This document shows, piece after piece, positions 19,438 to 20,730 of a stretch of 64,000 bases of DNA. The stretch lies in contig QZKU01000145.1 of NCBI GenBank assembly GCA_003598085.1, forward strand, positions 9,123 to 73,122, read 5' to 3'. Every line of letters starts with the position of its first letter. Position 1 is the stretch's first letter. Below the pieces are notes generated by a model. That model was not told the origin of the DNA and searched no databases. It saw nothing but the letters and a program-made list of their open reading frames with translations. Made by a program: the position numbers and the translations under genes. Source of the DNA: Candidatus Abyssobacteria bacterium SURF_5. Its GTDB lineage: Bacteria > Abyssobacteria > SURF-5.

Positions 19438-20730
19438 GTGAACAGGCGTTGCGTAGTGACAGGACTGGGCGTGGTTTCATCGGTGGGGATCGGCAAGGAA
19501 GCGTTTTGGGATTCACTCGTTCATGGACGTTCGGGCGTTTCCTATATTACGCGCTTCGATACATCAAAACTGCCGGTTCATCATGGCGGCGAAGTAAAGA
19601 ACTTCAATCCCACAGACTATATGGACGAACTCCGGGCGCAAATGTCCGGCCGTTACGTTCATTTTGCCGTTGCGGGCACAAAATTGGCGCTCGAGGACGC
19701 CGGCATCGAGCCTGATATGTATGACCGGTCCAGAATGGTCATGTATGGCGGCTCGACCGCGCCGGCGGCTGATTCTATCGAGAGCCACCTTCGAATCGCA
19801 ATCACCGACGACCCGTTCAATGCGCCCCCCTATGCGCTTGCCTCTATCGCAATGCATTCCGCCATAGGAGAAGCCGCCCAGACCGCAAATGTTTTCGATT
19901 CCTCGACCACAATCTCCACACACTGCACTTCCGGCCTGAACGCCATAGGGTTCGGACTCGATGAGATTCGCAAGGGTCGAAAGGATATTGTGGTGGCCGG
20001 CGCAACCGATTGTACGCTCACCTACTACGCTTTCATCAGCTATATCCTCGCGGGTCTGCTGGTGCCGGAGGAAGGGGTTCCACCCGAGAAGATCATGCGC
20101 CCGTATGACAAGAACCGTCGCGGCGGCGTGATGGCGGAGGGAGCGGGATTCCTCGTGCTTGAGGACCTGGAACATGCGCGCGCTCGCGGGGCTCACATTT
20201 ACGGCGAAATCATTGGACACGGGTATAAAGATAAAATCAACCTGTCGAAGTCGACAATGCTGACAATGTCCAGCGCCATCAGGGCGGCGCTTGCCAACGC
20301 ACGAGTAAGACCAACCGACGTGGACTACGTTCTGGCGAACGGCAATTCAACTATCGTGCAAGATAAGATGGAGACAAGGACCCTGAAGGAGGTATTCGGC
20401 GAGCACGCTTATCGATTGCCCGTGAGCGCCATAAAGTCAACGATTGGCATACCGAATTCAGCCATCGGTCCGATGCAGGTGATCGCTGCTTGCCTCGCGT
20501 TTGAATCCAACCTGATCCCTCCCACGATCAATTATGAAACCCCCGACCCCGAATGCGACCTCGACTACGTCCCAAATCACGCGCGGTTCAATCGGGTGAA
20601 TATGGCGGTTGTCAATAATTATGGCATGGACGGCGCCTGCGCCGCCGTACTCGTTAAGAGATACGGCAACGGGGAGGCCGTCTCATTTGGCGGCAGAGAC
20701 GGCGCATGCAAAAGTGACGGCGACAGCTGA
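19438..20730 (+). CDS. Beta-ketoacyl-ACP synthase II (FabF)-like protein with Cys retained but both catalytic His replaced
   Basis: [11 protein letters not shown] matches the FabF N-terminus, and a GAAGGAG ribosome-binding site precedes the GTG at 19438. The active-site Cys sits in STHCTSG (codon 19924-19926). The AHGTST His is replaced in ANGNST (Asn at 20338-20340). The KSMTGH His is replaced in KSTIGIPN (Ile at 20449-20451). The VPPTIN..CDLDYVP motifs are intact. Confidence 0.85.
   Translation: [430 protein letters not shown]

What the first reader, a model, noticed from the sequence alone, without database searches (positions are those of the whole stretch)
19438..20730. FabF-like ketosynthase keeps the acyl-accepting Cys but has lost both decarboxylation His residues
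Aligned to E. coli FabF, ACTSG becomes HCTSG, so the Cys (codon 19924-19926) is conserved. AHGTST becomes ANGNST, His to Asn at 20338-20340. KSMTGHLLG becomes KSTIGIPNS, His to Ile at 20449-20451. Flanking motifs ([20 protein letters not shown], and the Lys of KS) align cleanly, so this is not a frameshift artefact.

The Cys-His-His triad is needed for malonyl-ACP decarboxylation and condensation. A Cys+ His- KS resembles the non-elongating KS0 domains of trans-AT PKSs, which are acyl-transfer competent and condensation dead. Here it is a free-standing FAS-II-type protein. This points to a transacylase or scaffold role rather than chain elongation.
Basis: partly seen in the sequence, partly recalled or inferred. 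Interest (0 to 1): 0.7.

Follow-up and report, generated by a model that had tools for sequence, protein, structure and literature searches.

The report
Histidine-less ketosynthase in sensor-kinase operon
A fatty-acid-synthase-type enzyme that keeps its acyl-binding cysteine but has lost what it needs to elongate chains is the first gene of a conserved operon of membrane sensor kinases and a lipid exporter, which points to an unstudied link between lipid chemistry and bacterial signalling.

Summary
The ORF 19438-20730 (+) is a FabF-fold protein with Cys163 kept, His303 replaced by Asn and His340 replaced by Ile. This is not a sequencing error. All 47 close relatives share C / ANG / KSxxGIPNS / xDG (only P0026 keeps His303), while 119 of 119 canonical FabFs keep both His.

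The clade has also lost the GFGG/Asp265 gating loops and the whole basic ACP-docking patch, and it has small residues in the acyl pocket. It fails every curated FabF threshold.

The gene opens a tight operon: KS-like, a HisKA_7TM-GAF-PAS kinase, two hybrid kinases, then an MMPL/HAE3 lipid exporter. An intact MBL hydrolase lies upstream.

Every one of 8 other non-canonical KS clades examined also sits next to a HisKA_7TM kinase, against 0 of 76 canonical fabF loci. Related KS domains occur fused to REC, PilZ and PocR signalling domains.

Best reading: a neofunctionalised, non-condensing acyl-Cys enzyme that serves as the lipid-handling partner of a 7TM-kinase phosphorelay. It is not a KS0-type carrier-to-carrier transacylase. 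I could not determine whether it makes the signal, is the regulated output, or acts as a co-sensor.

The parts
19438..20730 (+). KS-like gene (430 aa), a FabF-fold protein with a Cys-Asn-Ile 'triad'
   Evidence: Pfam PF00109 and PF02801. AF2 pLDDT 86.5, TM 0.89 to BsFabF. Below all NCBIfam cut-offs.
19424..19429 (+). Shine-Dalgarno AAGGAG, 8 nt before the GTG start
   Evidence: Sequence read. The family consensus starts MxKRCVVTG.
19108..19227 (+). Two near-consensus sigma70-like promoter matches (TTGACA-17-TAAAAT, 11/12 each) in the MBL/KS-like spacer
   Evidence: These are consensus matches only.
19855..19857 (+). His140 codon, invariant in the clade (FabF Asn140 position)
19924..19926 (+). 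Cys163 codon (TGC), the retained acyl-accepting nucleophile
20338..20340 (+). Asn301 codon (AAC), replacing FabF His303
20449..20460 (+). Ile-Pro-Asn-Ser, replacing FabF His340-Leu-Leu-Gly; a clade signature
20629..20631 (+). Asp398 codon (GAC), replacing Gly401 of the GFGG gating loop (52/53 in the clade)
18243..19133 (+). MBL-fold hydrolase with intact HxHxDH (HYHEDH); nearest solved relatives are glyoxalase II, LACTB2 and PqsE type
   Evidence: Present upstream of the KS-like gene in L001, L002/L003, L101, L102 and the P0023 locus. Absent in L100.
20731..23277 (+). HK1: HisKA_7TM-GAF-PAS-HisKA-HATPase sensor kinase. Its ATG abuts the KS-like stop codon. The membrane domain has no periplasmic loop longer than about 20 aa.
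23279..25288 (+). HK2: REC-GAF-PAS-HisKA-HATPase hybrid kinase
25278..26885 (+). HK3: REC-HisKA-HATPase-REC hybrid kinase
26891..29224 (+). MMPL / HAE3-family RND transporter with a sterol-sensing-type domain (lipid exporter type)

Best explanation
The gene encodes a FabF-derived paralogue that can no longer carry out decarboxylative Claisen condensation. It has been retooled as the lipid-handling component of a HisKA_7TM multi-kinase phosphorelay and lipid-export operon.

Shown: the thiolase/KS fold, the nucleophile elbow, Cys163 and the Lys335/Asp311/Glu314 scaffold are kept. Both catalytic His, the GFGG/Asp265/His268/Thr270 gate and all five basic ACP-docking residues are replaced. The replacements are themselves conserved across the clade. 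The pocket residues Ile108 and Phe133 become small. The gene is co-operonic with a 7TM sensor kinase, two hybrid kinases and an MMPL/HAE3 exporter. The KS-like/7TM-kinase pairing recurs in at least eight other KS clades from several phyla.

Inferred mechanism: the homodimer takes a long or bulky acyl chain onto Cys163, probably from acyl-CoA rather than acyl-ACP. Many sister loci encode a long-chain acyl-CoA ligase and none encodes an ACP. The thioester is then resolved by transfer to a non-carbanion acceptor, or by hydrolysis with help from the adjacent MBL thioesterase-like enzyme. No chain elongation occurs. The resulting or bound lipid is functionally coupled to the wholly membrane-embedded 7TM sensor of HK1 and to the MMPL exporter.

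The direction of coupling is unresolved. My estimates: the lipid product is what the 7TM sensor monitors, about 0.45; the KS-like protein is the regulated output of the relay, about 0.3; a non-turnover co-sensor, about 0.25.
For: Fold and family.

Residue census. Residue roles come from PMC7138838 and PMC9006962.

Clade-wide conservation: 47 clusters at 90% identity share the signature. They form a single 50%-identity representative among 1.84 billion proteins. The clade has a long stem of 0.117 in the NJ tree.

Operon: intergenic distances of 0, 1, -11 and 5 nt.

Context conserved within the clade: L002-L005, L095, L100-L103 and P0023.

Pairing in other clades: L014, L020, L026, L035; L104, L105; L106, L107.

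Control: 0 of 76 canonical fabF loci have the 7TM kinase, and 45 of 76 have acpP next door.

Lipid-type accessory genes: a long-chain acyl-CoA ligase scoring 512.8 against a cut-off of 476, a family III CoA-transferase and a B12-radical SAM enzyme; an ACP plus thioester reductase, FadL-type channels and an ICMT/PEMT methyltransferase.

The MBL metal site is intact, with weak similarity to PqsE and glyoxalase II thioesterases.

Signalling-domain fusions: REC-KS, PilZ-KS and PocR-(GGDEF)-KS. Their KS domains are 53-60% identical to the 7TM-linked KSs of L014 and L020.
Against: No biochemistry exists for any member.

I could not inspect model coordinates. The geometry of Asn301, Asn340, Ser341, Asp398 and His140 around Cys163 is therefore unknown, and a non-canonical condensation cannot be excluded.

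Most clade loci share pheST-zapA synteny. Context conservation inside the clade is therefore largely shared ancestry. The independent support comes from the other clades, and these mostly keep at least one His.

The acyl-CoA ligase, CoA-transferase and B12-rSAM genes are absent from this window. One family locus (L100) also lacks the MBL.

The signalling-domain fusions keep Cys-His-His and are only 36-42% identical to this protein. Extrapolating from them to the His-less clade is indirect.

The deep branches of my NJ tree are unresolved.
Confidence: 0.5

Rival explanations
1. Pseudoenzyme or co-sensor. The KS-like protein does not turn over substrate. It binds, or is covalently acylated by, an acyl-thioester. 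That occupancy modulates HK1 or the REC domains of the relay by direct contact, or the reverse.
For: The stop and start codons abut or overlap in the window, L035, L105 and L106. This fits stoichiometric partners. The catalytic apparatus is freely variable across 7TM-linked clades (C-H-H, C-Y-H, C-H-Q, C-H-N, C-H-I, C-N-I), while Cys is always kept. The family operon has no other output domain. REC-KS fusions show that KS domains can be wired directly to receivers.
Against: The replacement residues are strongly conserved (Asn301, Ile-Pro-Asn-Ser, Asp398, His140). This looks like a new active site, not relaxed constraint. Tailoring enzymes vary between clades (B12-rSAM, methyltransferase, ACP plus reductase, MBL, acyl-CoA ligase). 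That argues for a small-molecule product.
Confidence: 0.22
2. Still a C-C bond-forming enzyme that uses a non-canonical site. Options are a KAS III-like oxyanion pair made from Asn301/Asn340, or a thiolase/OleA-like non-decarboxylative Claisen condensation with Asp398 (or His/Tyr at position 398) as base.
For: New conserved polar residues lie on the loops that carry the catalytic residues in FabF. From general knowledge, other thiolase-fold enzymes condense with Cys-His-Asn (KAS III) or Cys plus a carboxylate or Cys base (OleA, HMG-CoA synthase, thiolase). Sister clades carry Cys-His-Asn/Gln.
Against: Asn340 is two residues away from the His340 position, and a Pro intervenes. The gating loops that build the malonyl site are gone. 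From memory, H298Q in E. coli FabB is decarboxylation-dead (von Wettstein-Knowles et al. 2006); I did not re-read this. No ACP or malonyl-supplying gene lies nearby.
Confidence: 0.13
3. KS0-like transacylase that shuttles an acyl chain between two carrier proteins.
For: The Cys+/His- pattern matches the definition of non-elongating KS0 domains (PMC9582728).
Against: The protein is free-standing. There is no ACP, PCP or PKS gene in the 64-kb window or in any family locus. The ACP-docking residues Lys65, Lys69, Arg127, Lys128 and Arg206 are replaced, some by acidic residues, and Arg206 becomes Gly in 53/53. The best homologues are type II FabFs, not PKS KS domains.
Confidence: 0.05
4. Sequencing or assembly artefact, or a decaying pseudogene.
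For: Asn (AAC) is one base away from His (CAC).
Against: Ile (ATA) is two or more changes from His. The same residues occur in 47 independent clusters from many samples. The ORF is intact with an RBS. Sixty-seven columns are invariant over 42 sequences at 53-72% identity. A second lineage (P0142) reached Cys-Asn-Ile independently.
Confidence: 0.01

Closest known systems
FabF / KAS II (beta-ketoacyl-ACP synthase II, TIGR03150)
   Same: Same fold and length. 37% identity and TM 0.89 to B. subtilis FabF. The Cys nucleophile elbow, Lys335, Asp311, Glu314 and the C-terminal [20 protein letters not shown] block are conserved.
   Different: Both catalytic His, the GFGG/Asp265/His268/Thr270 gate and the basic ACP-docking patch are replaced. 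Pocket residues Ile108 and Phe133 are small. HMM score is 334 against a cut-off of 494. The gene is not in a fab/acpP cluster; it heads a kinase/MMPL operon.
KS0 (non-elongating KS domains of trans-AT PKSs)
   Same: Cys retained and catalytic His missing, which implies acyl transfer without elongation (PMC9582728).
   Different: KS0 are domains inside megasynthases and act between flanking carrier proteins. This is a free-standing type II protein with no carrier protein nearby and no ACP-docking patch.
Chain-length factor / KS-beta, and KS/CLF-like heterodimers (actinorhodin 1tqy_B; the anammox pair 9s5h B/C, which is probably the pair of bioRxiv 10.64898/2026.05.19.726425, link not confirmed)
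   Same: Catalytically altered FabF-like subunits. 9s5h_B is the third-best solved relative.
   Different: CLFs lose the Cys, typically to Gln, and sit beside an active KS-alpha. Here Cys is kept, both His are lost and no second KS gene is adjacent.
AmcF (cispentacin acyltransferase-type KS subunit, NF058662)
   Same: A FabF-like protein that NCBI names as an acyltransferase subunit. It is detectably similar (144.5 bits).
   Different: The score is far below the 325-bit cut-off. There is no AmcG-like partner or type II PKS context.
Lipid-signal synthase / membrane-kinase gene pairs (RpfF-RpfC with RpfB acyl-CoA ligase; CqsA-CqsS) and the PQS enzymes (PqsD and PqsBC of the thiolase superfamily plus PqsE, an MBL-fold thioesterase). 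Recalled from general knowledge.
   Same: An enzyme borrowed from fatty-acid metabolism sits next to a polytopic sensor kinase with no periplasmic domain. Acyl-CoA ligase and MBL-fold thioesterase-like genes are in the neighbourhood.
   Different: The enzyme families differ: crotonase, PLP aminotransferase and KAS III-type, against FabF-type here. The kinase sensor domain (PF16927) differs. No signal molecule is known.
DesK-type membrane-state sensing that controls lipid-modifying enzymes (general knowledge)
   Same: A kinase whose sensor is purely transmembrane, genetically tied to lipid-modifying and lipid-export genes.
   Different: DesK is a 5-TM kinase that acts through transcription of a desaturase. 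Here the lipid enzyme is co-operonic, and in related proteins it is fused to REC, PilZ or PocR domains.

Membership tests
FabF / KAS II (TIGR03150, NF005589) | Score at or above the curated HMM cut-off | tested here: not met
   TIGR03150 scores 334.2 against 493.75. NF005589 scores 318.9 against 387. All 26 NCBIfam hits are below cut-off.
FabF / KAS II | Cys-His-His catalytic triad | tested here: not met
   Cys kept, His303 to Asn, His340 to Ile.
FabF / KAS II | GFGG loop 1 with Asn404, and Asp265-led loop 2 (gating) | tested here: not met
   GMDG replaces GFGG (Gly401 to Asp in 52/53). Asp265 becomes Lys/Arg, His268 becomes Gly, Thr270 becomes Lys/Met. Roles are from PMC7138838.
FabF / KAS II | Basic ACP-docking patch (Lys65, Lys69, Arg127, Lys128, Arg206) | tested here: not met
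   All five are replaced across the clade, and Arg206 is Gly in 53/53. Arg68 of that interface was not tabulated.
FabF / KAS II | Thiolase-type KS fold with N- and C-terminal KS domains | tested here: met
   PF00109 and PF02801. AF2 pLDDT 86.5. Foldseek TM 0.89 to 4ls5/4ls6.
FabF / KAS II | fab-cluster context (acpP, fabG or fabD adjacent) | tested here: not met
   No ACP in the window or in the family loci. 45 of 76 control fabF loci have acpP within 1.5 kb.
KS0 of trans-AT PKS | Cys present and catalytic His absent | tested here: met
   Definition from PMC9582728.
KS0 of trans-AT PKS | Domain of a multimodular PKS, flanked by carrier-protein domains | tested here: not met
   A 430-aa free-standing ORF. 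No PKS or ACP in the 64-kb window.
Chain-length factor (KS-beta) | Active-site Cys replaced (Gln) and an adjacent KS-alpha partner | tested here: not met
   Cys is retained 53/53 and no second KS gene is in the operon.
AmcF (NF058662) | Score at or above the curated cut-off | tested here: not met
   144.5 against 325.
KAS III-type signal synthases (PqsD/PqsBC, PpyS, DarB) | FabH-type fold subfamily (ACP_syn_III domains) | tested here: not met
   Only the KS I/II Pfam domains pass the gathering threshold. No ACP_syn_III hit for the query.
HisKA_7TM-linked KS-like proteins (grouping proposed here; not a curated family) | FabF-type KS gene immediately upstream of, or within three genes of, a PF16927 sensor kinase on the same strand | tested here: met
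   Window: the stop codon abuts the HK1 start. The same holds in 8 other KS clades and in 0 of 76 control loci.
HisKA_7TM-linked KS-like proteins (proposed) | Monophyly with the other 7TM-linked and signalling-domain-fused KSs | tested here: inconclusive
   The NJ tree places them together at one side, but the deep branches are 0.001-0.02 long and there are no support values.

The most novel reading that the evidence does not exclude
FabF-type KS proteins are the dedicated lipid-chemistry module of a widespread, unrecognised class of signal-transduction systems. These systems comprise HisKA_7TM kinases plus REC-, PilZ- and PocR-fused KSs. In the Hydrogenedentota/Abyssubacteria clade the KS has been converted from a condensing enzyme into a Cys-only acyl-transfer or covalent acyl-sensing subunit. 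That subunit either supplies the membrane-embedded 7TM sensor with its lipid ligand or reports acyl-thioester status to it. This would be a new kind of lipid-based signalling or membrane-homeostasis circuit.
Probability: 0.3. Interest if true: 0.85.

Novelty: new variant of a known kind. Interest (0 to 1): 0.62.

Why it matters
If the reading holds, three things follow.

1. It defines a natural, conserved FabF paralogue in which the transacylation half-reaction is uncoupled from condensation and from ACP. That is useful for understanding, and for engineering, KS acyl-enzyme chemistry.

2. It gives the first functional handle on the HisKA_7TM sensor domain (PF16927), for which no ligand is known. 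The sensor's constant genomic partner is a lipid-handling KS.

3. Together with the REC-KS, PilZ-KS and PocR-KS fusions, it suggests that bacteria wire second-messenger and phosphorelay signalling directly to KS-type lipid chemistry. I found no paper describing this link.

Tried and rejected
1. The genome-contig scan with the family alignment chose generic FabF motifs (CDLDYVPN, PTINYExPD) and returned 80 mostly canonical fabF loci. It was useless for finding family members. I reused it as a negative control, and it happened to contain four 7TM-linked loci.

2. The metagenome scan with a back-translated KSxxGIPNSxxxPM pattern gave 14 loci, of which only 2 (L093, L095) were real.

3. I first read L001 (Hydrogenedentota) as encoding a kinase-less 7TM protein next to the MBL and KS-like genes. 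Translation showed that the gene runs into an assembly gap of Ns, so that inference is withdrawn.

4. A homologue search with the HK1 7TM domain returned only 2 proteins. That is too few for a structure prediction of the sensor, so none was run.

5. The Rfam scan of the whole window gave no hit, so there is no known riboswitch in the 304-nt leader.

6. Literature searches for HisKA_7TM, for KS with histidine kinase, and for PilZ with ketoacyl synthase found nothing on such systems.

7. A compensating His next to the Cys (HCTSG) is rejected because it is not conserved in the clade.

8. AF2 coordinates are not exposed by the tools, so active-site distances could not be measured.
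Full report
**1. Observation**

The ORF is real. The longest frame runs 19402-20730. The family consensus begins MxKRCVVTG, and an AAGGAG lies 8 nt before the GTG at 19438.

The codons are as stated:
- TGC (Cys) at 19924-19926
- AAC (Asn) at 20338-20340
- ATA (Ile) at 20449-20451

A HMMER alignment to B. subtilis FabF (4ls5, E 1.4e-84, collinear over 414 residues) and a MAFFT alignment to E. 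coli FabF agree on the catalytic columns:
- ACTSG aligns to HCTSG
- AHGTST aligns to ANGNST
- KSMTGHLLG aligns to KSTIGIPNS

Pfam finds both KS domains. An AlphaFold model built on 42 relatives has pLDDT 86.5 and superposes on FabF structures with TM 0.89.

**2. Not an error, and not alone**

A search of 5.8 billion proteins shows a sharp break. There are 47 clusters at 54-100% identity (P0001-P0046 and P0048). Ordinary FabFs follow at about 42% or less.

Every one of the 47 keeps the Cys, and all have Ile at position 340. All but P0026 have Asn at position 303. Nearly all share KSxxGIPNS and an xDG motif in place of GFGG.

In a wider alignment, 119 of 119 canonical sequences keep both His.

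At 50% identity the clade collapses to a single representative (P0021, 754 bits) among 1.84 billion proteins. The next single-domain hits score 444 bits or less. In an NJ tree the clade has a long stem (0.117), while deeper nodes are unresolved.

Source names place members in Candidatus Hydrogenedentota, Abyssobacteria and 'Lindowbacteria' MAGs.

A second protein, P0142, is also Cys-Asn-Ile (GANGVSD / KGSIGIPTCA). It is 52% identical to the Cys-His-Ile KS of a Lentisphaerae locus and only 41% identical to this one. The same pair of replacements therefore seems to have arisen twice.

**3. What else has changed**

Residue roles here come from the FabF-ACP crosslink and gating study (PMC7138838) and a review of stand-alone KS enzymology (PMC9006962). 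Against those roles, the clade has lost more than the two His.

Gating loops:
- GFGG: Phe400 becomes Leu/Met, and Gly401 becomes Asp in 52/53
- Asp265 becomes Lys/Arg
- His268 becomes Gly
- Thr270 becomes Lys/Met

ACP-docking residues:
- Lys65 becomes Asp/Ser/Thr
- Lys69 becomes Met/Leu/Val
- Arg127 becomes Asp/Asn/Glu
- Lys128 becomes Glu/Pro/Ser
- Arg206 becomes Gly in 53/53

Acyl-pocket residues:
- Ile108 becomes Ser/Ala/Thr
- Phe133 becomes Ala/Gly

Kept: Cys163, Gly304, Ser306, Asp311, Glu314, Lys335 and Ser336.

New clade-wide invariants: His140, Asn301, Ile-Pro-Asn-Ser 338-341 and Asp398.

This pattern is that of a re-tooled site under purifying selection, not decay. Sixty-seven columns are invariant over 42 sequences at 53-72% identity. 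All NCBIfam models, including fabF and AmcF, score below their cut-offs.

**4. Context in the window**

The KS-like stop codon (20728-20730) abuts the ATG of a HisKA_7TM-GAF-PAS histidine kinase (20731-23277). Three further genes follow:
- a REC-GAF-PAS kinase (23279-25288)
- a REC-kinase-REC protein (25278-26885)
- an MMPL/HAE3 RND transporter with a sterol-sensing-type domain (26891-29224)

The spacers are 0, 1, -11 and 5 nt.

Upstream, after a 304-nt spacer with two near-consensus promoter matches, lies an MBL-fold hydrolase. Its HxHxDH site is intact, and it has weak similarity to glyoxalase II, LACTB2 and the PqsE thioesterase. Further upstream are zapA and pheST.

There is no ACP, fab or PKS gene in the 64 kb.

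The HK1 N-terminus is a run of 8-9 hydrophobic segments with loops of 20 residues or fewer. The sensor is therefore entirely membrane-embedded.

**5. Context elsewhere**

Within the clade the order KS-like, HK1, HK2, HK3, MMPL is constant. It is seen in L002-L005, L095, L100-L103 and the P0023 locus.

Upstream of the KS-like gene is a variable set of genes:
- a long-chain acyl-CoA ligase (512.8 bits against a cut-off of 476)
- a family III CoA-transferase
- the MBL
- a B12-binding radical SAM enzyme

These are documented.

Most of these loci share pheST-zapA synteny, so they are one lineage and not independent.

The independent evidence comes from other KS clades. Every non-canonical relative I could look up is next to a PF16927 kinase:

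| Locus | Source | Triad | Other genes at the locus |
|---|---|---|---|
| L104 | unnamed | C-H-Q | two B12-rSAM genes; FadL-type channel |
| L105 | unnamed | C-H-N | none noted |
| L106 | unnamed | C-H-H | none noted |
| L107 | unnamed | C-H-Q | ICMT/PEMT methyltransferase; two B12-rSAM genes; sigma54 regulator |
| L014 | Nitrospirota | C-H-H | FadL-type channel |
| L020 | Nitrospiraceae | C-Y-H | ACP; thioester reductase; REC-HD-GYP |
| L026 | Thermodesulfobacteriota | C-H-Q | 3-hydroxyacyl-CoA dehydrogenase downstream |
| L035 | Lentisphaerae | C-H-I | sigma54 regulator |

The last four were found by chance among the 80 fabF-like loci.

The remaining 76 loci of that scan form a control. None has the 7TM kinase (HMM built from 15 examples), and 45 have acpP within 1.5 kb.

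One earlier inference is withdrawn. The 'kinase-less 7TM protein' in L001 is an assembly-gap artefact.

**6. KS domains fused to signalling domains**

The best hits of the family profile in the representative library include several fusion architectures:
- REC-KS (P0166)
- PilZ-KS (P0152, P0154, P0195; also P0065)
- PocR-KS
- PocR-GGDEF-KS

All keep Cys-His-His.

The KSs of the 7TM-linked loci L014 and L020 are 53-60% identical to the KS domains of the REC and PilZ fusions. They are 42-45% identical to E. coli FabF.

These fusions show that FabF-type KS domains are used as effector domains under phosphorylation, c-di-GMP or ligand control. The link to this window's protein is indirect, at 36-42% identity.

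**7. Mechanism**

Established knowledge of KS enzymes bears on this (PMC9006962). Cys plus the backbone oxyanion hole carries out transacylation. The two His drive malonyl decarboxylation and enolate attack. It follows that this protein can plausibly still form an acyl-Cys thioester. It cannot plausibly carry out the canonical condensation.

Three findings point to acyl-CoA, or another partner, rather than acyl-ACP as the donor:
- the ACP patch is lost
- no ACP gene is present in the clade's loci
- sister loci encode an acyl-CoA ligase

The smaller pocket residues suggest a longer or bulkier chain. This is inference only.

My best explanation has confidence about 0.5. The protein is a non-condensing acyl-Cys enzyme, either an acyl transferase or, together with the MBL, a thioester-processing step. 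Its lipid substrate or product is coupled to the membrane-embedded 7TM sensor and to the MMPL exporter.

Whether the lipid is the sensor's ligand, or the KS-like protein is the relay's output, or it acts as a non-turnover co-sensor cannot be decided from sequence.

Rivals:
- pseudoenzyme or co-sensor (0.22)
- a non-canonical condensing site using Asn/Asn/Asp (0.13)
- a KS0-style carrier-to-carrier transacylase (0.05)
- artefact (0.01)

**8. Comparison with known systems, and novelty**

The protein has the FabF fold but fails four of six FabF membership tests.

It shares the Cys+/His- pattern of KS0 domains (PMC9582728) but not their architecture or their carrier-protein partners. It is not a CLF, since the Cys is kept and there is no KS-alpha partner. 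It is not AmcF (144 bits against a 325-bit cut-off).

In operon logic it most resembles lipid-signal synthase and membrane-kinase pairs such as RpfF/RpfC and CqsA/CqsS, and the PQS enzymes. This comparison is from general knowledge. The enzyme family and the sensor domain are both different.

I found no paper on HisKA_7TM function beyond domain censuses. I found none on KS/kinase pairing or PilZ-KS fusions.

I rate it a new variant of a known kind, with interest 0.62. The most novel reading not excluded is that KS-type lipid chemistry forms the core of an unrecognised class of signalling systems. I give that a probability of about 0.3.

Noticed in passing
Proteins P0166, P0152, P0154, P0195, P0065, P0136, P0160, P0193, P0207, P0247, P0151, P0161, P0170, P0183, P0226: FabF-type KS domains with an intact Cys-His-His triad are fused C-terminally to signalling domains: REC-KS, PilZ-KS, PocR-KS and PocR-GGDEF-KS. 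KS-NUDIX (P0181) and KS-polyketide cyclase/START (P0237) fusions also occur. I found no literature on them.
   Followed up: partly
P0142; L035:9529-10770: A second, distantly related Cys-Asn-Ile KS (P0142). It is 52% identical to the Cys-His-Ile KS of a Lentisphaerae 7TM-kinase locus and 41% identical to the window protein. This suggests a parallel His303-to-Asn change after His340-to-Ile.
   Followed up: partly
L001:12250-12360: The 'complete' Hydrogenedentota chromosome CP070779.1 has a run of Ns inside the 7TM kinase gene. NCBI's 'partial' 297-aa hypothetical protein (P0121) is therefore a gap artefact.
   Followed up: yes
window 54389-59629 (-): A 1746-aa ORF whose only Pfam matches are DnaA-type AAA+ ATPase domains (two stretches) near the N-terminus. 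The rest is unannotated.
   Followed up: no
window 35922-46585 (+): A cluster of heterodisulfide-reductase-like proteins (CCG domains, 4Fe-4S, very large Pyr_redox_2 flavoproteins of 1143 and 1033 aa), followed by a PAS-PAS histidine kinase at 46619-48085.
   Followed up: no
window 32064-33038 (-): A radical SAM domain fused to a C-terminal HTH_20 DNA-binding domain. This is an unusual enzyme-regulator fusion.
   Followed up: no
window 19108-19136 and 19199-19227 (+): Two near-consensus promoter-like sites with identical hexamers (TTGACA-17-TAAAAT), 91 nt apart, in the spacer before the KS-like gene. There is no Rfam hit in the 304-nt leader.
   Followed up: partly
window 20731-21630 (+); tm.aln of 15 loci: The HisKA_7TM domain has conserved polar or aromatic positions across six or more clades: F35, W45, T115, Q170, Y173, P193, Y218 and R224-L-M-D227. 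These are candidates for a ligand or interaction site.
   Followed up: no
L100:19856-20992 (-), and the corresponding genes in L002, L004, L102: In relatives the MMPL gene is followed on the opposite strand by an AmmeMemoRadiSam-system radical SAM gene and a DUF362 gene. In the window that position holds a UgpC/MalK-type ABC ATPase (29326-30426, -).
   Followed up: no
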